The notes: generated by a model not told the origin, from the letters alone. Numbered from the stretch's first letter, positions 1 through 6,446 are shown. The stretch: DNA of 6,446 nt from Promethearchaeota archaeon (GCA_027031765.1 JALVPN010000194.1:1-6446), one strand, 5' to 3'. Program-made: numbers and translations.

Positions 1-563
1 TCTAAGACTCTCCAGGGCTCATCGGATTGACGCACGGCGTCGAGCACGGCCCCAAGCATGTCTCTTGAACCACGCACCTCTGGCCAGCCGCTCACCACCC
101 ACAGCACCCTCCATGGCCCGTCACACTCTCGGATGGCACAGGCAACTGCACCGAGTACTTCTCTTGAGCCACGCACCTCTGACCAGCCGCTCACTGCCAA
201 CAGCACTCTCCAGGGCTCGTCAGACCCACGGACTGCCTGTGCTAACCGTGGTGCGGCCGCCTCCACCGCGAGGAGCACATCCTGAGAGTCATGTGCCTCA
301 GGCCAGCCCCTCACCGCCCACAGGACTCTCCAAGGTCGGCCATCTGTACGGACTGCGCCGGCAACAGCAGCCAGGACTTGCGGTGAGCGGCGCACCTCGT
401 GCCAGCGACCCACTGCCTCCAGCACTCTCCACGGCTCGTCGGACTCGCTGACGGCAGCCGCCACCCTCGACACGCTATCAGCTACGGCGTGCTGCACGTC
501 CTCAGACTCTGCGAGAGGCCCACAGCGTGAGACTGTCCCGAGCAGCCGCCACACATCCGGGTC
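1..563 (-). repeat. Coding tandem repeat array (33- or 40-aa helical units) of the STAND protein
   Basis: Units: 563-444 DPDVWRLLGTVSRCGPLAESEDVQHAVADSVSRVAAAVSE (40); 443-345 SDEPWRVLEAVGRWHEVRRSPQVLAAVAGAVRT (33); 344-225 DGRPWRVLWAVRGWPEAHDSQDVLLAVEAAAPRLAQAVRG (40); 224-126 SDEPWRVLLAVSGWSEVRGSREVLGAVACAIRE (33); 125-27 CDGPWRVLWVVSGWPEVRGSRDMLGAVLDAVRQ (33); 26-1 SDEPWRVL (partial). At DNA level, 61-113 matches 160-212 at 47/53 bases with a 99-bp offset. Confidence 0.95.
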
Positions 564-2561
564 GTGTCTTGTCGACCAGCGGATTAGCCGGGCTGCGAAG
601 TGTACGACCACCTCTGACAGGCCCGGCCCAGAGGTGGCCTGCTGGGACTGTACCTTCAGGGCATGTCCACACCGGGACAGTTCGCGGGCAAGGGTCACGT
701 GTGGTAACTTCACCCTCCTCATGTCCCCGCGTCCATCATCGACCAGTTCGCCCCACTGTATGAGGTGGGTGCAGGCATTGTACACAGCCCGTTTCAACTC
801 GCGCTCCCCGAACTCGTCCGGGTCTGTGAACACATGTCCTCGCTCCTCTGCGCAGAGCTGGGCCACGAACCGGACAGGCACCCAGATATCAGCAGTACCC
901 AGTGCAGCGATGCTCTCCAAGACTAGTTGCAGCAACATTCTCTTCTCGCCGTCTTCGGCTCCCACGAGGCCGGAGAACGAGTCCTGTTCCGCCAGACTGG
1001 AGAGCCGTGCGAGTACCGATTGCTGGTCGAGTCCGTGCTCATCACGCTCACCGTAGTAGTACCTCCGGATCTCCGAACATATGTCGATGTCCTCGGTCCT
1101 GGTCTCCCGCTCCAGTCCGCGGAGCGCGAACGACAGCAGCCACAGGCTGTGCCTGCACTTCTCCGCCAGTACCCTCTCCATCTGTTGCAGGTGTGCCCTG
1201 TCCGTCTTCTCTCCGAAGGCCGCGACGATACCAGAGACCGCCTCACTGAACTCCTCCTCTTCCAGCCGAATGACGTGGAGCAGTGGACGGCCGCTCTCCG
1301 CACCTGCAATGCCTTCAACCACTCTACTGACAGCACCGTCTGGGTCGTCAGTCGTCATCCTTACAAGGAACAGGAAGTCCGGCCTCGCCACACCGGTCAG
1401 CCCCGGGTACTCAGTCTGTGAGTCCCAGGCACGCGACTGTCTGAGGTTCATGTACACCTCTCTCAGCTTGTCCGGTGCCACATGTACATTGTCGAGGATG
1501 AAGAGGGCACGGGCATTCTCATCGTTCTCGTTGTTGCGCAGGTACCGCACAAGATCCACCAGGTCATCTGCTATGTGTGAGGGGTCATGTCCCATGAAGT
1601 CAACGTAGTACACGGGCGCACCCCGCTCCAAGACTCTCCTGAAGCCGAGGATGAGGGCGAGGGTGGTCTTGCCTGCACCAGCCTTTGCAACAATGAGCTG
1701 CATGTTTGACCTGGTACGGAACCCCTCCTCAACCGCTTTGAGCAGACGTTCCCGTGGGTAGTAGTAGTCATTGAGGAGGTCGACCCACATCGGGTGTGGA
1801 CGCCTGAAGAACGTCGGTGTGACAACACGCCTCCTGTCCAGTGGGAGACTGTCGAACGATTCGATACCCTCATTGACTGCCCCTGCCAGCACATGGAGGT
1901 AGTTGTCGAGGTTGAGGACACGTGGTAGTAGTGAGAACGTGCGTGGGGTCTCTGCGGCCACGGCAGAGGGCCTGAACAGGACTTCTCTGATGTACTCGAA
2001 CATCCCACGTAGTCCACGGATCTGCCCTTGGGTGGCGAGTACGGCCTGGTATATGTCGGCAGTGGATGCCCTGACAGCCACAGTCCTGGCCAGCCTCGCC
2101 TCCAGCTCCTGGGCCACCCGCTCCGCGAGGACACGGTCGTCGAAGCCTGCGCTGACCAGCAGCCCGACCACAGTGTCTGCGAAAGGCTTCTGACCAGAGA
2201 GGTCCATGCGGACTTGTTTGGCGGACTGACGTATCTGCCGGGGCAGACCCTCAAGGACTCTCCACTGTTCGGGGTCAAGACCGAGCTGCTGTGCGACATC
2301 AGCTGCAAGGGCCTTCGTTGCCTGCATGGCCTGCCGTTCATCCCAGTGGCCCCGTATGTGATGGGCAACTCTCGACAGGATGTCTGGCACCCCGGCGGGC
2401 GCAGCACCGGGTAGAAAGGCCCCAGCTGTACGCACGAGCATGGAAACAGTGCCCTTGAGTGCGTCAAGGGTTTCAGCGGATGTGGCCGCAAGCCACAGCT
2501 TAGAGAAGAGGGCGCGGAATGCTCCTAGAGGGCCCTGGCCAAATGGTTGTACTACACCCAT
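1..2561 (-). CDS. NLR-like STAND-class P-loop NTPase (helical N-terminal domain + NTPase/helical/winged-helix module + C-terminal helical repeats); 3'-truncated by the window edge
   Basis: Hand translation from ATG 2561 (in-frame TAG just upstream at 2576-2574; alternative ATG 2441) is open to base 3: MGVVQPFGQGPLGAFRALFSKLWLAA... Motifs: FFRRPHPMWVDLLNDYYYPR (1811-1752); Walker A LIVAKAGAGKTT (AKAGAGKTT 1688-1662, fits [AG]x4GK[ST]); Walker B ALFILDNVH (1508-1482); sensor-1-like FLFLVR (1376-1359); helical-domain KCRHSLWLL (1160-1134); winged-helix-end KLPHVTLAREL (710-678). Repeats follow from 563. Not in the ORF track because no stop lies inside the window. Confidence 0.9.
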   Translation of the reverse strand, partial: MGVVQPFGQGPLGAFRALFSKLWLAATSAETLDALKGTVSMLVRTAGAFLPGAAPAGVPDILSRVAHHIRGHWDERQAMQATKALAADVAQQLGLDPEQWRVLEGLPRQIRQSAKQVRMDLSGQKPFADTVVGLLVSAGFDDRVLAERVAQELEARLARTVAVRASTADIYQAVLATQGQIRGLRGMFEYIREVLFRPSAVAAETPRTFSLLPRVLNLDNYLHVLAGAVNEGIESFDSLPLDRRRVVTPTFFRRPHPMWVDLLNDYYYPRERLLKAVEEGFRTRSNMQLIVAKAGAGKTTLALILGFRRVLERGAPVYYVDFMGHDPSHIADDLVDLVRYLRNNENDENARALFILDNVHVAPDKLREVYMNLRQSRAWDSQTEYPGLTGVARPDFLFLVRMTTDDPDGAVSRVVEGIAGAESGRPLLHVIRLEEEEFSEAVSGIVAAFGEKTDRAHLQQMERVLAEKCRHSLWLLSFALRGLERETRTEDIDICSEIRRYYYGERDEHGLDQQSVLARLSSLAEQDSFSGLVGAEDGEKRMLLQLVLESIAALGTADIWVPVRFVAQLCAEERGHVFTDPDEFGERELKRAVYNACTHLIQWGELVDDGRGDMRRVKLPHVTLARELSRCGHALKVQSQQATSGPGLSEVVVHFAARLIRWSTRHDPDVWRLLGTVSRCGPLAESEDVQHAVADSVSRVAAAVSESDEPWRVLEAVGRWHEVRRSPQVLAAVAGAVRTDGRPWRVLWAVRGWPEAHDSQDVLLAVEAAAPRLAQAVRGSDEPWRVLLAVSGWSEVRGSREVLGAVACAIRECDGPWRVLWVVSGWPEVRGSRDMLGAVLDAVRQSDEPWRVL
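678..1811 (-). other. STAND NTPase module (nucleotide-binding domain, helical domain, winged helix)
   Basis: Order and spacing of Walker A (K298), Walker B (D357-N358), sensor-1 Arg (R401), helical segment and terminal His (H621, position analogous to the NB-ARC MHD / NACHT winged-helix His) match STAND architecture. Residue numbers are counted from ATG 2561. Subfamily not determined. Confidence 0.75.
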
Positions 2562-3007
2562 GCCTGTCCAACACTACCAGTCAACATGTATCAGACCGCT
2601 GACCGATAGTCATCAGATATGTGTTCCGGCTGCCCATGGTCAGGACGGGGCGCCCCGGCGTCCAGATAGGCGGTGCTCCTCTCGGTCCTCACGGCAATGT
2701 ATCAGCAACACCAGCATCTATTGGGAGCGGGAGGAGAGGACCGGGCCGGTACAGGTAGCACGCATGGGTGACCCACACGCATCAACGAGCGCAACGAGCG
2801 CCGGGGAGCCCGGTGGTGGTCGGGAGGGCTGCCTATTGTACTGTGGGACATGCACCTAGCACGGTATGGCGTGGCCCGTCAGGTCAGTCCAGTGCTACGT
2901 CTCTCGTGTCCGGCGGCCACTCGTGCAGGATTTCGTGGACATCGGGACATCACGGGCCGGCAGTCACAAGCCCTACGGTCACTGTCAAAGAGAGGGCATG
3001 GGCCACC

Positions 3008-3050
3008 AAGAATAAGTGTGCCGGGGGACTGGGTACTACACTATTGAGGT
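3008..3050 (+). promoter_or_regulatory. Possible archaeal-type promoter (purine-rich/AT box AAGAATAAG, 3008-3016) and Shine-Dalgarno-like GAGGT (3046-3050)
   Basis: AT-rich box about 35-45 nt upstream of ATG 3052 in otherwise GC-rich DNA. GAGGT lies 1 nt before ATG 3052 and 7 nt before in-frame GTG 3058. The match to a TATA consensus is weak. Confidence 0.3.
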
Positions 3051-3051
3051 A

Positions 3052-5118
3052 ATGACTGTGGACACGATACGTCGCGTCACAGCCCTGTTCACAGTGTGCA
3101 TCTTTGTCGTCAGTGCATGCCCACTCGTTGTTACGGGTGCTGTGACTGTTGTCAGGAATGACATGGACCTTGAAGACACGGGCATATCGCTGGTGGAGCT
3201 GGTGCCCGACGCCAACCTCACCCTCGAGCAGGGGACAGCTGTCAGGAGTGGCTCGGGCGAGTTCTCTGCGGTATGGGGGACGGCGGACGGAGACCACTAT
3301 GTGGACCTCACGTTCACGCACGAGGCCGGCACAGAGCTCGACTTCAACGAGTCCACCGGGACGTACCAGGACATGGTGTACGTATACGAACAGTGCGAGT
3401 GGACAAGGGAGGAGTTGCCGGACCGTGTCAAGTTGGAGCTGGACTTTGGGGTGGCATTCTCGGACGACTTCGTGACGGGCTGGGACAACCCCGGCTGGAG
3501 TTCCGTGTATCCGCTCTCAGTGTCCGTGTCAGCATGGTGTGTCGACGCCTCGGGGAACTGGAACGAGTTGTTTCATTCGGGGCCGCCCTATTACCAGTCG
3601 GACTCGGGAGAGCCCATTGTGACGACCAGGAAGACAGGACTGACATACTCACAGGTCGTTGACTGTTTTGGTGGGATGGTCGAGGACGACGCGGGCCACC
3701 AAGAGGATGCCAACGACACGTTCACTGTCGTAGTCGGCCTGACACTGACACACTACTTCTACAGGCTGCCAGTGGGCGGCGACGAACCATGGCGCCATGT
3801 CAACGGTTCTGTCACCGTAAGGCTATCGAGGGTGTCCTTCGAGGCATTCACAATAGACCCTGACGCGGCCCCTGCACGGCTGGACCCGACACTAGTAGTG
3901 ACAGCACCCTCGGACGGCTCCCGGTTCTATCCGAGCATCGCAGTTGACAGTGGGCACTCGTTCTATGCAGCGTCATATTCCACATCCACTGACCCTGCAT
4001 CGCCACGACTTGTGAAGTGGTCAGCCAATGGAGACGTGGAGTGGCAACGCCCCATATGTCAGCAGTCCTATGATTTCGTGCGTGTGCTGTCCGTTGGCAA
4101 CAGGATATGTACTGTCGGCGGGATCCGCCACCACGGTGAGGACAACGCCCACATCGTGCTCCTGACGGTCTGGGACACTGAGGGTACGATGACCGCCAAC
4201 ACTACGGTCGAGCTGGAGGGTTCACCACTGGCCTTCCTCGACGCCGCTGCGGACGCTGCAGGACATCTGTGGGTGCTGGCGGCCGAGACCTCAGGTCAGA
4301 CACTCACCCCGCTGATACTCGGGGTCGACATGTCCGGTCAGGTGGTGCATACTGGACAACTGGACGACTTCCCCGTCCAGCTTGCGGTCTCTGCGGATGG
4401 GACACTCGTCCTCCTCATGCCAGACAGGGTCGATGCCTACAACTCTGAGCTCCAGCACCTGTGGTCTGCAGACACACACGGCATGGTCGCATCTGCTTCT
4501 GTCGACCCATCTGGCAACGTGTATGCAATAGGACGGCCGTATGAGGACGATGTGCCACTGCTCCCAGACAGGGGGTTCTCACTGCTCCGACTGGTCTCTG
4601 AGGGGCAGGCGGACTGGCTCTCTGTGACACGGCAGACCATCGGGGACAGACATGGTGACACTGCCACCAGTGACCTGTCATGGGCTGTTGGCAGGCCGGT
4701 GCATGCCGCATTTGCAGCCCCCGCAGTGGGTACCTGCATGGCCCTTGTCATCGGGGAATACCTAGAGTACTCCGCGCTTGTCAAGTTCAACGCGAGCGGG
4801 CGGCTCGTGCAGTCGTACTCCCTCGGCCACATATCCGACATGCTCAGCGAGTACAGCCCAGGTACTCCTGTCGGGCTCGCTGTTGCGCCTGACGGACTCG
4901 TGTACTTGGCCTGGCCGACGCAGGTCATCGCCCTCGACATCGGACTGACGGGAGGCGGTACTGGGACGACCGGGACACTCCTCGTGGTCGCGGTGTCGGC
5001 GGTGGGCGTTGCAGCAGTTGCCGGGGCGGCGGTGCTCTATGTACGTCGGAAGCGCAGCACAGTGCCGGCCATCCATGGCCCTGCTGCCACACCGGGTGCC
5101 GGCGCAGGCCCCCAGTGA
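3052..5118 (+). CDS. Secreted, C-terminally membrane-anchored cell-surface protein (about 688 aa): signal peptide, uncharacterised beta-rich domain, beta-propeller, TM helix, short cytoplasmic tail
   Basis: N-terminus MTVDTIRR-VTALFTVCIFVVSACPLVVTGA is basic then hydrophobic. Propeller-blade motifs lie in about 3900-4950 (SIAVDSGHSFYAA, LVKWSANGDVEWQ, DAAADAAGHLWVL, QLAVSADGTLVLL, SASVDPSGNVYAIG, LVKFNASGRLVQS, GLAVAPDGLVYLA). A G/T linker precedes the TM helix LLVVAVSAVGVAAVAGAAVLYV (4978-5043) and RRKR (5044-5055). Start at 3052 or 3058 is preferred to GTG 3016. Confidence 0.9.
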   Translation: MTVDTIRRVTALFTVCIFVVSACPLVVTGAVTVVRNDMDLEDTGISLVELVPDANLTLEQGTAVRSGSGEFSAVWGTADGDHYVDLTFTHEAGTELDFNESTGTYQDMVYVYEQCEWTREELPDRVKLELDFGVAFSDDFVTGWDNPGWSSVYPLSVSVSAWCVDASGNWNELFHSGPPYYQSDSGEPIVTTRKTGLTYSQVVDCFGGMVEDDAGHQEDANDTFTVVVGLTLTHYFYRLPVGGDEPWRHVNGSVTVRLSRVSFEAFTIDPDAAPARLDPTLVVTAPSDGSRFYPSIAVDSGHSFYAASYSTSTDPASPRLVKWSANGDVEWQRPICQQSYDFVRVLSVGNRICTVGGIRHHGEDNAHIVLLTVWDTEGTMTANTTVELEGSPLAFLDAAADAAGHLWVLAAETSGQTLTPLILGVDMSGQVVHTGQLDDFPVQLAVSADGTLVLLMPDRVDAYNSELQHLWSADTHGMVASASVDPSGNVYAIGRPYEDDVPLLPDRGFSLLRLVSEGQADWLSVTRQTIGDRHGDTATSDLSWAVGRPVHAAFAAPAVGTCMALVIGEYLEYSALVKFNASGRLVQSYSLGHISDMLSEYSPGTPVGLAVAPDGLVYLAWPTQVIALDIGLTGGGTGTTGTLLVVAVSAVGVAAVAGAAVLYVRRKRSTVPAIHGPAATPGAGAGPQ

Positions 5119-5165
5119 CGGGGACGGCTGACGGGCTGCACACAGCATAGTACCATGGCACAGGC

Positions 5166-5205
5166 GAGCAGAGCAGGTCAGAGCAGAGTAGAGTGGAGTG
5201 GAGTG
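5166..5205. repeat. Degenerate pentanucleotide microsatellite, 8 units
   Basis: GAGCA GAGCA GGTCA GAGCA GAGTA GAGTG GAGTG GAGTG in the 104-bp gap between two convergent stop codons. Confidence 0.85.
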
Positions 5206-5222
5206 TAACGGGGCAGCGCGGG

Positions 5223-6446
5223 TCACAGGCCGCGTGCCCTCATTGCTGCCTGGACTGCAGGGTGACGGAGGACTTCGGGCCAGCCGACCAGACTGTCCAC
5301 GATATGGTCGGGTCTGAGGGCCTTCCTTATGGCAGAGGATATGCGCTGCACAGCACGCCAAGCAGCAGCCACCACGTCCTCAGACTGTTCCAGCTCGGGC
5401 CACCCGGAAACGGCACCGAGGACCTCCCACGGCCGGGGTGACCACTCAATAGCGAGGGCTACCCGTGGCGCACACTCGAGCACTGCACTACGTATTGCCA
5501 CTGAGTCCCGAGTCCCGGGCCAGTCCTTCAGCAGGGCGAGCACATGCCATGGCCTGTCTGACTGTCGCAGCACCTCGGCGACTGCAAGGAGGATGTCCTC
5601 TGACCCGCATAGTTCCGGCCAGTTGGAAACGGTCGCGACCACCTCCGACGGCCTGTCCGACCCCCGGATGGCCTCTGCCAGCTCTGGCGCTCTGCTGGCC
5701 ACAGCACGGGACACCGTTTCAGACTCCCGGATGACAGGCCACTCCAGGAGTGTCCGCAGCAGCCGGTACGGGTCGTCAGACTGGCGTATCGACTCTGCAA
5801 CCCGGGACAGGCTGTCGGTGACCGCGTTGCACACCATTTCGGAGTGCTGTACACCAGGCCACTTTGACACGGCCTCGAGCACGCCACACGGGTCATCAGA
5901 GATACGGACAACATCCGCCAGTGCACTGAGCACCTCTGTTGACCAGCAGACCCATGAGTACCCGGACATCACGGAGAGGGCCTCGTAGGGGGGCTCTGCA
6001 ATGCGGACGGAGTCTGCCAGCGCACAGAGCACCTCGGACGACCTCTGCGCCTCGGGCCAGTCCTGCAGCACTTCGAGTATGTCACCGATGTCCGGAGACC
6101 GACGGATGAGGGCGGCCAGCGAACTGAGCACTTCATCAGACCCGCGGAGCTCAGGCCACCTGGAGAGGGCCCTCAGTATCTCCACTGGTCTGTCAGACAC
6201 CACGACTGCACGGGCCACCTGTGGAGCAGCCCCGGTCACGGCCCTACGGAATGCACCCGAGTCGGACAGGCCGGGCCACCCGGACAGGACGCGCAGCACC
6301 TCCCACGGTCTGGCTGAGTGGCGCACTGCACTGGCCACTGCAGACCTTATCTCCTCAGAACTCAGCAGCGACGGCCACTTGGCCACAGCGGACAGCACAC
6401 CTTCCAGCTCGTTGTCGGCACTACGTATTGATTCTGCTATCCGGGG
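5223..6446 (-). CDS. C-terminal part (407 aa visible) of a helical-repeat protein sharing the STAND protein's repeat; 5'-truncated by the window edge
   Basis: The frame of the supplied 5223..6398 ORF stays open to 6446 (PRIAESIRSADNELEG precedes VLSAVAKW), so GTG 6398 is not the start. Stop TGA at 5225-5223. The whole visible sequence is the SD.PW.VL..(V/L)S.WP....S..V..AVA..(I/V)R repeat. Confidence 0.9.
   Translation of the reverse strand, partial: PRIAESIRSADNELEGVLSAVAKWPSLLSSEEIRSAVASAVRHSARPWEVLRVLSGWPGLSDSGAFRRAVTGAAPQVARAVVVSDRPVEILRALSRWPELRGSDEVLSSLAALIRRSPDIGDILEVLQDWPEAQRSSEVLCALADSVRIAEPPYEALSVMSGYSWVCWSTEVLSALADVVRISDDPCGVLEAVSKWPGVQHSEMVCNAVTDSLSRVAESIRQSDDPYRLLRTLLEWPVIRESETVSRAVASRAPELAEAIRGSDRPSEVVATVSNWPELCGSEDILLAVAEVLRQSDRPWHVLALLKDWPGTRDSVAIRSAVLECAPRVALAIEWSPRPWEVLGAVSGWPELEQSEDVVAAAWRAVQRISSAIRKALRPDHIVDSLVGWPEVLRHPAVQAAMRARGL
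5226..6446 (-). repeat. Coding tandem repeat array, 11 units plus a partial unit
   Basis: Unit starts (lengths in aa): 6422 (35), 6317 (40), 6197 (33), 6098 (33), 5999 (33), 5900 (40), 5780 (40), 5660 (33), 5561 (40), 5441 (40), 5321 (32, terminal). With 8 leading residues these sum to 407 aa. Confidence 0.95.

What the first reader, a model, noticed from the sequence alone, without database searches (positions are those of the whole stretch)
5226..6446. Two-length (33/40 aa) helical repeat used like a binary alphabet, with a covarying residue
Seen: 14 of the 15 complete non-terminal units across both genes are exactly 33 or 40 aa (one is 35). The long form carries a 7-residue insert in the second helix (e.g. 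AV-TGAAPQV-A, AV-ASRAPEL-A, AV-LECAPRV-A, AV-EAAAPRL-A, AV-TDSLSRV-A). The order differs between genes: left 40,33,40,33,33; right 35,40,33,33,33,40,40,33,40,40,32. Position 19, just before the invariant Ser20, is D/E in 5 of 7 long units (all 4 AP-insert units) and in 0 of 7 33-aa units (G,G,G,G,R,R,W). Inference: the insert is about two helical turns, so it keeps helix register. The two forms are distinct modules older than the split between the genes, and their order could tune solenoid curvature and so ligand shape.
Basis: partly seen in the sequence, partly recalled or inferred. Interest (0 to 1): 0.72.

Follow-up and report, generated by a model that had tools for sequence, protein, structure and literature searches.

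The report
Two-length helical repeat, archaeal solenoid family
This stretch encodes part of a rare archaeal helical-repeat protein whose units are either 33 or 40 residues long, the long form carrying a 7-residue extension of its second helix; the order of short and long units is kept like a bar code in distant relatives, but the suggested covarying residue does not hold up.

Summary
The two-length repeat is real and is a property of the whole family. In the window every complete unit is 33 or 40 aa. A scan that allowed any spacing from 28 to 50 gave 33 aa 113 times and 40 aa 88 times in 35 independent database relatives, and 34 aa never.

The long form is the short form plus one heptad. In AlphaFold models all 7 long units have the second helix extended and split; all 8 short units have one 13-residue helix.

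The short/long order is identical at 18 array positions in six ~725-aa orthologues that share only 19-26% identity. It differs between paralogues in this genome.

The position-19 acidic covariation (5/7 vs 0/7 in the window) does not replicate: 39/103 vs 36/130, p=0.12.

The arrays are acidic alpha-solenoids with an ARM/HEAT-like fold. They resemble the 42-aa SKWP repeats of XopAD/RipS effectors, but that link shows only in this GC-rich genome's proteins. They occur fused to Apaf-1/NLR-like STAND NTPases (the left gene), fused to an Arf GTPase, or alone.

The family is nearly confined to one archaeal taxonomic family. Its function is inferred, not shown. The scan has noted SKWP-like arrays in other genomes, but not this 33/40 family.

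The parts
5226..6446 (-). C-terminal 407 codons of a repeat-only gene (stop at 5223-5225). Tail of a long unit, then 10 complete units (S L S S S L L S L L), then a 32-aa C-terminal cap. The gene is interrupted by the N-gap just right of the window.
   Evidence: AlphaFold pLDDT 95.2
6417..6446 (-). Residues 1-10 (PRIAESIRSA): end of a long unit whose start lies beyond the scaffold gap.
6318..6416 (-). Unit 1, short (33 aa)
   Evidence: H14-21, H25-28, H31-43
6198..6317 (-). Unit 2, long (40 aa), insert TGAAPQV
   Evidence: second helix split: H64-72 + H74-83
5901..6197 (-). Units 3-5, three short units (33 aa each); unit 5 has a degenerate W-P turn (GYSWVCWS)
5661..5900 (-). Units 6-7, two long units (40 aa each)
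   Evidence: H203-211 + H213-222; H243-250 + H253-262
5562..5660 (-). Unit 8, short (33 aa)
5322..5561 (-). Units 9-10, two long units (40 aa each)
   Evidence: H316-324 + H326-335; H356-364 + H366-375
5226..5321 (-). C-terminal cap unit (WPxV..HPxV..A..RG-L), conserved at the end of family members
3..563 (-). Repeat array of the left gene (L S L S S, then a partial unit), cut by the contig end. It probably continues on contig C156:2-1141.
564..2561 (-). Left gene: helical N-terminal region plus Apaf-1/NLR-like STAND P-loop NTPase, upstream of the array
3016..5118 (+). Intervening 700-aa gene with a hydrophobic C-terminal segment and no family match. Not a conserved neighbour of the repeat genes, so not counted as part of the system.

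Best explanation
The region is the larger part of a repeat-only gene of about 630 aa. It belongs to a rare family of acidic alpha-solenoid proteins found almost only in one archaeal taxonomic family. The basic unit is 33 aa: an 8-residue helix A, a 4-residue W-P-E-L turn, an N-cap residue (Ser here) and a 13-residue helix B. The unit exists in two discrete states, without or with one extra heptad (V-x-x-[S/R]-[A/V]-P-[R/D]) in helix B. The heptad lengthens helix B by about two turns and kinks it. The rest of the unit is the same in both states. The order of short and long units is an inherited, position-specific feature. It stays unchanged in orthologues whose sequences have drifted to about 20% identity, and it is altered by whole-unit indels and S/L switches in paralogues. 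Inferred: the long units fix the overall shape of the superhelix. The array acts as a protein- or peptide-binding scaffold of the ARM/HEAT type. It sits in the sensor position of NLR-like STAND NTPases such as the left gene, and also forms free-standing ~630-725-aa proteins such as this one.
For: Bimodality: own genome 33 x22 and 40 x22. In database relatives, with any spacing 28-50 allowed, 33 x113, 40 x88, 34 x0 and 36-38 x7. Insert position and consensus. Heptad hydrophobic pattern. Structure: P0001 model pLDDT 95.2, pTM 0.85; repeat part of the P0002 model pLDDT about 90 or higher. All 7 long units have a split helix B and all 8 short units a single one. Bar code: unit starts fall in the same alignment columns, and class is identical at all 18 resolved positions in six proteins of 19-26% identity (two pairs 42-43%). 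The third gene of the contig and the right gene map collinearly, with unit indels and S/L switches. The NTPase class shares the prefix L S x S S L. Fold: Foldseek top hits are importin-alpha, beta-catenin and designed ARM proteins (E about 2e-5, TM 0.30-0.44). ESM-Atlas neighbours are HEAT, ARM and a XopAD cluster (TM 0.5-0.58). Context: the left-gene model matches Apaf-1, CED-4, plant NLRs, MalT and Avs5. Relatives are fused to nSTAND-like NTPases or an Arf GTPase. Acidity: pI 4.5-5.8 in 32 of 36 arrays, net charge negative in 34 of 36 (-1 to -47).
Against: No ligand, partner or phenotype is known. The geometric effect of long units was not measured, because no coordinates were available. The kink is a model feature built on shallow alignments (23 and 13 rows). 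Conserved helix lengths among orthologues are expected for any conserved fold, so the bar code shows constraint but not a specific role. Structural neighbours found without Foldseek are mostly RNA-handling helical-repeat proteins, which points to a different ligand class.
Confidence: 0.6

Rival explanations
1. The array is an OPR/SKWP-type nucleic-acid (RNA) reader in which units contact successive nucleotides, as proposed for SKWP effectors and organellar OPR/HPR/PPR proteins. Long and short units would adjust the spacing along the RNA.
For: NCBIfam XopAD/skwp hits for P0001 (E 3.8e-14) and P0004 (6e-12). tblastn of P0001 finds 21 plasmid records; all 13 of the 15 listed records with an annotated feature under the match carry xopAD/skwp genes. 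The shared motif (S-x-W-P-D/E) is in phase. VIA-align top hits are RESC subunits, mitoribosomal helical-repeat proteins, Puf5 and FASTKD4 (Z 9-13.7). The literature links SKWP to PPR/OPR-like RNA binders (PMC13667924, PMC7729196).
Against: The arrays are acidic (pI 4.5-5.8 in 32 of 36; net charge down to -47), whereas the XopAD repeat region is neutral (pI 7.5). Known RNA-reading solenoids are basic (established knowledge). The Z values lie within the noise stated for helical repeats. The XopAD model finds none of 8 low-GC family members. No Pfam PPR, PUF, FAST or DUF1601 hit at E<=1.
Confidence: 0.12
2. The short/long order is a fast-varying 'binary alphabet' that diversifies ligand specificity among NLR-like immune sensors.
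For: The order differs between the paralogues of this genome. The family is patchy and expanded in some genomes. It is fused to STAND NTPases. S/L transitions look random (SS18 SL26 LS25 LL19, p=0.20).
Against: Within orthologous groups the order is invariant at about 20% sequence identity, the opposite of a diversifying character. No covarying specificity residue was found. The last unit before the cap is long in 10 of 12 complete C-termini, which suggests architecture rather than code.
Confidence: 0.13
3. The heptad is a tolerated neutral indel with no functional meaning. Only multiples of 7 survive because they keep the helix register.
For: Outside the insert, short and long units are indistinguishable. 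S/L switches occur between paralogues.
Against: The position-specific conservation in orthologues at 19-26% identity argues against neutrality. The insert has a conserved consensus of its own: hydrophobic 27 and 31, R/S 30, P/D 32.
Confidence: 0.1
4. The pattern is an assembly artefact of collapsed or chimeric repeats in a metagenome-assembled genome.
For: Contigs break inside arrays (C194 left end, C156, C134, C74), and a 10-N gap sits inside the right gene.
Against: The same two lengths occur in 35 independent database clusters. The neighbouring paralogue is found letter for letter on an independent ENA contig. The frames are open throughout.
Confidence: 0.02

Closest known systems
SKWP repeats of XopAD/RipS type III effectors (NCBIfam NF041399; Ralstonia, Xanthomonas, Pseudomonas, Mesorhizobium)
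   Same: Tandem helix-turn-helix units with an in-phase S-x-W-P-[D/E] turn after helix A. There is array-level sequence similarity and an Atlas structural neighbour (TM 0.51). The 42-aa SKWP unit has a helix-breaking N-D-R-G stretch in the same general region of the second helix as the split in the long form (about 3-4 positions further on), so the long form resembles it most (inference).
   Different: SKWP units have one length: 42 aa in 16 of 17 intervals in a Pseudomonas xopAD gene, and about 42 aa in the literature (PMC13667924). Here there are two lengths, 33 and 40. There are no RdRP-like or pyrophosphokinase modules, no type III secretion context, and the host is an archaeon. The score is 51 bits against a cut-off of 2000. 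The similarity shows only for the GC-rich members, so composition may contribute.
Armadillo (ARM) and HEAT repeat solenoids (importin-alpha, beta-catenin, designed ARM proteins)
   Same: Best Foldseek matches (probability 1.0, E about 2e-5) and Atlas neighbours (TM 0.46-0.58). The units are about 40 aa with a short helix plus two longer ones. The arrays are acidic; importin-alpha, by comparison, binds basic peptides (established knowledge).
   Different: No Pfam Arm or HEAT hit at E<=1. Global TM is only 0.30-0.44 with rmsd above 10 A, so the superhelix differs. ARM and HEAT arrays do not show a quantised two-length unit.
PLS-class pentatricopeptide repeat proteins (P 35, L 35-36, S 31-32 aa motifs)
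   Same: A precedent for a helical-repeat family built from discrete length variants placed in a defined order (established knowledge). A designer PLS-type PPR appears among weak structural matches.
   Different: No sequence relation. PLS variants differ throughout the motif and alternate in P-L-S triplets. Here the two forms differ only by one heptad and follow no periodic order. PPRs are basic RNA readers, and these arrays are acidic.
Prokaryotic STAND/NLR-like NTPases with C-terminal repeat sensors (Apaf-1/NB-ARC, MalT, Avs, nSTAND families)
   Same: The left gene and at least three paralogues have an N-terminal helical region, a P-loop NTPase and a repeat array. The model matches Apaf-1, CED-4, NRC3, Sr35, MalT and Avs5. 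There are weak nSTAND_NTPase5/nSTAND1 Pfam hits.
   Different: The sensor-position repeats are this 33/40 family rather than TPR, WD40, LRR or HEAT. The Pfam scores are below cut-off. The window's right gene has no NTPase at all.

Membership tests
XopAD/SKWP (RipS) repeat effectors | Tandem units carrying an S-K-W-P motif at a fixed phase | tested here: met
   S-x-W-P-[E/D] is present in the window's arrays (W14 81-85%, P15 59-66% in this genome) and is in phase with the SKWP consensus. In low-GC relatives W14 and P15 drop to 20-30%.
XopAD/SKWP (RipS) repeat effectors | Uniform unit length of about 42 aa | tested here: not met
   The units here are 33 or 40 aa. A Pseudomonas xopAD gene has 42 aa x16 and 45 aa x1.
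XopAD/SKWP (RipS) repeat effectors | Whole-protein match to NF041399 above its cut-off, including the RdRP-like and pyrophosphokinase modules after the repeats | tested here: not met
   51 bits against a cut-off of 2000, covering profile positions 461-814 of 2133 only. The protein ends with the 32-aa cap unit that follows its last full unit.
XopAD/SKWP (RipS) repeat effectors | Type III-secreted protein of a Gram-negative plant-associated bacterium | tested here: not met
   The genome has an archaeal SSU rRNA (750 bits). The family is found in 20/43 genomes of one archaeal taxonomic family and 1/157 elsewhere in the phylum.
Armadillo repeat (Pfam PF00514) | Sequence match to the Arm profile | tested here: not met
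   No Arm hit at E<=1 in Pfam-A.
Armadillo repeat (Pfam PF00514) | Three-helix units of about 42 aa stacked into an ARM-type superhelix | tested here: inconclusive
   Foldseek probability 1.0 and E 2e-5 to importin-alpha and beta-catenin, but TM 0.30-0.44 and rmsd above 10 A. Long units have extra helical segments and short units do not.
HEAT repeat | Sequence or fold match to HEAT arrays | tested here: inconclusive
   No Pfam HEAT hit at E<=1. Atlas TM 0.46-0.57 to HEAT clusters.
OPR/HPR/PPR/PUF RNA-binding helical repeats | Profile match (PPR, PUF, FAST, RAP, DUF1601), and structural match standing above background | tested here: inconclusive
   No Pfam hit at E<=1. VIA-align Z 9-13.7 to RESC, mitoribosomal repeat proteins, Puf5 and FASTKD4, within the range the tool reports for unrelated helical repeats.
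OPR/HPR/PPR/PUF RNA-binding helical repeats | Net basic array suited to binding nucleic acid (established knowledge) | tested here: not met
   pI 4.5-5.8 in 32 of 36 arrays; net charge negative in 34 of 36, down to -47.
STAND (NB-ARC/NACHT-like) NTPases (left gene only) | P-loop NTPase core with helical and winged-helix domains, followed by a repeat array | tested here: met
   AlphaFold model with a beta-alpha-beta core at residues 271-433. Foldseek top hits are Apaf-1, CED-4, NRC3, Sr35, MalT and Avs5 (E 1e-6 to 1e-4). Pfam nSTAND_NTPase5 scores 22.4 bits, below its cut-off of 34.

The most novel reading that the evidence does not exclude
A discrete heptad 'switch' in helix B is a heritable structural code. 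The bar code of short and long units sets the pitch and curvature of an otherwise uniform solenoid, and paralogues change their ligand-binding shape by flipping units between 33 and 40 aa rather than by changing surface residues. The family would also be an archaeal branch of the SKWP/OPR-type repeat superfamily, so far known from bacterial effectors and eukaryotic organelles. The genome may be Asgard-like: it has 28 Arf-model GTPase matches.
Probability: 0.15. Interest if true: 0.7.

Novelty: new variant of a known kind. Interest (0 to 1): 0.5.

Why it matters
Helical-repeat proteins usually vary in unit length loosely (HEAT) or not at all (SKWP, TALE core, designed ARM). This natural family differs: one unit toggles between two exact lengths by a single heptad, and the order is conserved at about 20% sequence identity. 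That makes it a clean system for asking how unit length sets solenoid shape, which is useful for repeat-protein design. It also defines a previously undescribed sensor-position repeat for archaeal NLR-like STAND NTPases. It may extend the SKWP-type repeat, known from plant-pathogen effectors, to archaea. The practical lesson for annotation is that these arrays break short-read assemblies, so unit counts in this genome are minimum values.

Tried and rejected
- **Word-indexed protein search.** The search for homologous proteins with P0001 at similar lengths returned nothing. Longer and shorter proteins were not searched with that tool. The exhaustive HMMER search found 36 clusters.
- **Locus scans.** Two related-loci scans of genome contigs (P0001, P0009) returned nothing, so the organism could not be named. 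A paper search for the sample accession found nothing.
- **Sequence search of PDB chains.** Nothing meaningful.
- **ESM-Atlas feature search.** Scores were at most 0.78 and uninformative.
- **PADLOC.** Only marginal hits: mad8 for the NTPase at E 2.6e-4, ZorC for P0001 at 0.004. Not used.
- **Single-unit profile comparison of S or L with SKWP.** Not significant (hhalign E 0.03-0.16). The relation rests on array-level matches only.
- **Middle gene as a partner.** Rejected. Relatives of P0003 exist in 25/30 genomes of the family, but where both were located they lie on other contigs or hundreds of kb from the repeat genes.
- **Joining C194's left end to C156.** About 60 nt are identical and then the sequences diverge, with no exact overlap. 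The join is plausible and fits the bar-code prefix of P0005 and P0010, but it is not proven.
- **Search for any residue outside the insert that marks long units.** None passes correction or replicates between data sets.
- **Inter-repeat twist and curvature.** Could not be measured, because the tools return no coordinates.

Full report
**What is in the window.**
- The window is positions 1-6446 of a 9411-bp contig (C194) of a 2.95-Mb archaeal metagenome-assembled genome.
- It holds three genes.
  - 3..2561 (minus strand): 853 codons, running off the contig end.
  - 3016..5118 (plus strand): 700 codons.
  - 5226..6446 (minus strand): 407 codons, open at its 5' end.
- The window ends at 6446 because a run of 10 N follows at 6447-6456.
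- Beyond the gap, in another frame, lie 221 more codons of the same gene. They have a start codon and an N-terminus like that of the neighbouring paralogue.
- In a family alignment the two pieces end and begin at adjacent columns, 220 and 221. The right gene is therefore one gene of about 630 codons broken by a scaffold gap of roughly zero length.
- A third repeat gene lies at contig 7291-9411. Its full 724-aa form (P0004) occurs letter for letter on an independent ENA contig.

**The observation.**
- I anchored units on the Trp of the W-P turn.
- The right gene has intervals of 33,40,33,33,33,40,40,33,40,40 and a 32-aa cap.
- The left gene has 40,33,40,33 and one more complete 33-aa unit.
The first ten residues (PRIAESIRSA) are the tail of a long unit cut by the gap, and a normal 33-aa unit follows.
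- A unit HMM run over the whole genome finds eight open reading frames with the repeat. Intervals are 33 x22 and 40 x22, with single cases of 32, 34, 41 and 42 and two of 66, which is 2 x 33.
- Four of these frames are close paralogues of the left gene, and all are cut by contig ends. The arrays evidently break the assembly.

**Is the two-length pattern a family property?**
- An exhaustive HMMER search of 1.84 billion representative proteins found only 36 clusters at E<=1e-3.
- I made a position-weight matrix of unit positions 1-26, which are common to both forms, and chained hits allowing any spacing from 28 to 50 with no preference.
- The database relatives gave 33 x113, 40 x88, 39 x11, 32 x7, 35 x7, 42 x7, 41 x6, 43 x5, 34 x0 and 36-38 x7.
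- The distribution is sharply bimodal in proteins that share 15-29% identity with the window's genes.

**What the two forms are.**
- The short consensus is S-D-E-P-W-x-V-L-x-A-V-x-x-W-P-E-L-R-x-S-x-E-V-L-x-A-V-A-x-A-V-R-E.
- The long form is the same with V-x-x-[S/R]-[A/V]-P-[R/D] inserted after position 26.
- Hydrophobic positions 23, 27, 31, 34/35 and 38 continue the 3-4 stripe, so the heptad keeps register.
- The AlphaFold model of the 407-residue piece has pLDDT 95.2 and pTM 0.85.
  - Every short unit is an 8-residue helix, a 4-residue turn and one 13-residue helix.
  - Every long unit has the last helix split into 9 + 10 residues, with a break of one or two residues near position 30.
- The left-gene model repeats this in 2 long and 3 short units. 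The totals are 7/7 and 8/8.
- Outside the insert the forms cannot be told apart.
  - No shared position passes a corrected test or replicates between the own-genome and database sets.
  - A unit's nearest neighbour has the same class no more often than chance, 74/131 against 65 +/- 6.

**Position 19.**

| Data set | D/E in long units | D/E in short units | p |
|---|---|---|---|
| Window | 5/7 | 0/7 | 0.021 |
| Other arrays of this genome | 4/15 | 3/17 | 0.68 |
| Database relatives | 35/88 | 33/113 | 0.13 |
| Pooled out of sample | 39/103 | 36/130 | 0.12 (odds ratio 1.6) |

- These counts are; one search gives the same picture with HMM anchors.
- Long units with Pro32 are no better, at 10/32 out of sample.
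- Position 19 was picked after the fact from about 33 positions. I read the window pattern as chance, with at most a weak trend.
- Position 20 is Ser only in this genome. Relatives have N, D, S or H, the usual helix N-cap residues.

**Order of the units.**
- Adjacent classes are independent: SS 18, SL 26, LS 25, LL 19, p=0.20.
- The order is nevertheless not free.
- In a MAFFT alignment of six ~725-aa repeat-only proteins from different 50% clusters (19-26% pairwise identity, two pairs at 42-43%), unit starts fall in the same columns.
- The class is identical at every resolved position: L S S S L S S L L' S S L S L L L S L, then the cap.
- The contig's third gene and the right gene map onto this frame collinearly. 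They differ by losses of whole units and by S/L switches at columns 339, 488-575 and 655.
- The NTPase-fused class shares the prefix L S x S S L among the left gene (with its probable continuation on C156), P0005 and P0010.
- The last unit before the cap is long in 10 of 12 complete C-termini.
- So the order is an old, position-specific architecture that changes between paralogues. It is not a rapidly shuffled alphabet.

**Fold and relatives.**
- Pfam gives no repeat family at E<=1.
- NCBIfam gives the XopAD/skwp effector family for P0001 (E 3.8e-14, 51 bits against a cut-off of 2000) and for P0004 (6e-12).
- tblastn of P0001 against 72,556 plasmids finds 21 records. Of the 15 listed, 13 have an annotated feature under the match, and in every case it is a xopAD/skwp gene.
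- A Pseudomonas xopAD gene has KWP anchors spaced 42 x16 and 45 x1. The known family is monomorphic.
- An HMM of its 42-aa unit hits this genome's arrays (E 1e-7) and no reversed or shuffled decoys.
- Neither that HMM nor the NCBIfam model finds any of eight low-GC family members. Shared Ala/Arg/Leu-rich composition may therefore help the match, and I rate true homology to SKWP at about even odds.
- Foldseek ranks ARM proteins first, with low global TM.
- The ESM Atlas gives HEAT, ARM and XopAD clusters at TM 0.5-0.58.
- An aligner independent of Foldseek ranks RESC subunits, mitoribosomal helical-repeat proteins, Puf5 and FASTKD4 first. Their Z values are within the stated noise for helical repeats.
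- The papers read link SKWP to PPR/OPR-like RNA binders (PMC13667924, PMC7729196).
- The arrays here are acidic: pI is 4.5-5.8 in 32 of 36, and net charge is negative in 34 of 36, down to -47. The XopAD repeat region has pI 7.5. This favours protein or peptide ligands over nucleic acid.

**Context and distribution.**
- The left-gene model matches Apaf-1, CED-4, plant NLRs, SAMD9, MalT and Avs5.
- Relatives carry weak nSTAND Pfam hits, and one is fused to an Arf-family GTPase above the Pfam cut-off.
- The intervening 700-aa gene has relatives in 25/30 genomes of the taxonomic family. Where both were located, these lie on other contigs or far from the repeat genes, so I do not count it as part of the system.
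- With a family profile the repeat proteins are found in 20/43 genomes of the window's taxonomic family and in 1/157 other genomes of the phylum.
- The genome has an archaeal SSU rRNA, 28 matches to the Arf model and a sub-threshold profilin-like match.

**Verdict.**
- Shown: a quantised 33/40 unit, an insert of exactly one heptad, and a conserved order.
- Model-based: the split helix in long units.
- Not supported: the covarying residue.
- Inferred: a scaffold or sensor function, and any effect of unit order on curvature.
- This is a new variant of a known kind, an SKWP/ARM-like solenoid. It is of moderate interest for repeat-protein architecture and for archaeal NLR-like systems.

Noticed in passing
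contig C194:6447-6456 (just right of the window) and C194:6457-7120: A 10-N scaffold gap splits the right gene. The N-terminal 221 codons lie beyond it in another frame, and the family alignment suggests almost nothing is missing.
   Followed up: yes
window 3016-5118 (+): A 700-aa protein with a hydrophobic N-terminal stretch, a hydrophobic segment followed by RRKR near the C-terminus, and no Pfam, NCBIfam or PADLOC match. Relatives are in 25/30 genomes of the taxonomic family, often as tandem pairs of 520-570 aa, and are not linked to the repeat genes.
   Followed up: partly
G000 contig C74:1-1725 (L027): One NTPase paralogue carries a perfect fourfold tandem 'GERDERRPD' insertion inside the helical domain after the NTPase core.
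   Followed up: no
G000 contigs C134, C156, C74 and window 3-2561: Four 66-69% identical STAND-NTPase-plus-repeat paralogues, each cut by a contig end inside its array. The left end of C194 and the start of C156 share about 60 identical nucleotides and may be one gene.
   Followed up: partly
P0006 (database relative, 735 aa): The same 33/40 array is fused to an Arf-family small GTPase (Pfam Arf 37.7 bits, above cut-off), preceded by an unassigned ~115-residue N-terminal region. This is a second kind of NTPase partner for the repeat.
   Followed up: partly
whole genome G000: 28 matches to the Arf GTPase model in a 2.95-Mb archaeal genome, plus a sub-threshold profilin-like match on C110. This fits an Asgard-type lineage.
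   Followed up: partly
G101:C311:3188-4252: The only hit outside the window's taxonomic family (E 2.7e-75, a 364-aa fragment on a short contig of an 80%-complete genome). It could be a mis-binned contig or a gene transfer.
   Followed up: no
window 1-6446, plus strand over the repeat genes: Long open frames antisense to the repeat genes (for example 5329-5988 and 6001-6444). They are Ser/Thr/Arg-rich mirror frames of a GC-rich repeat and there is no evidence that they are genes.
   Followed up: no
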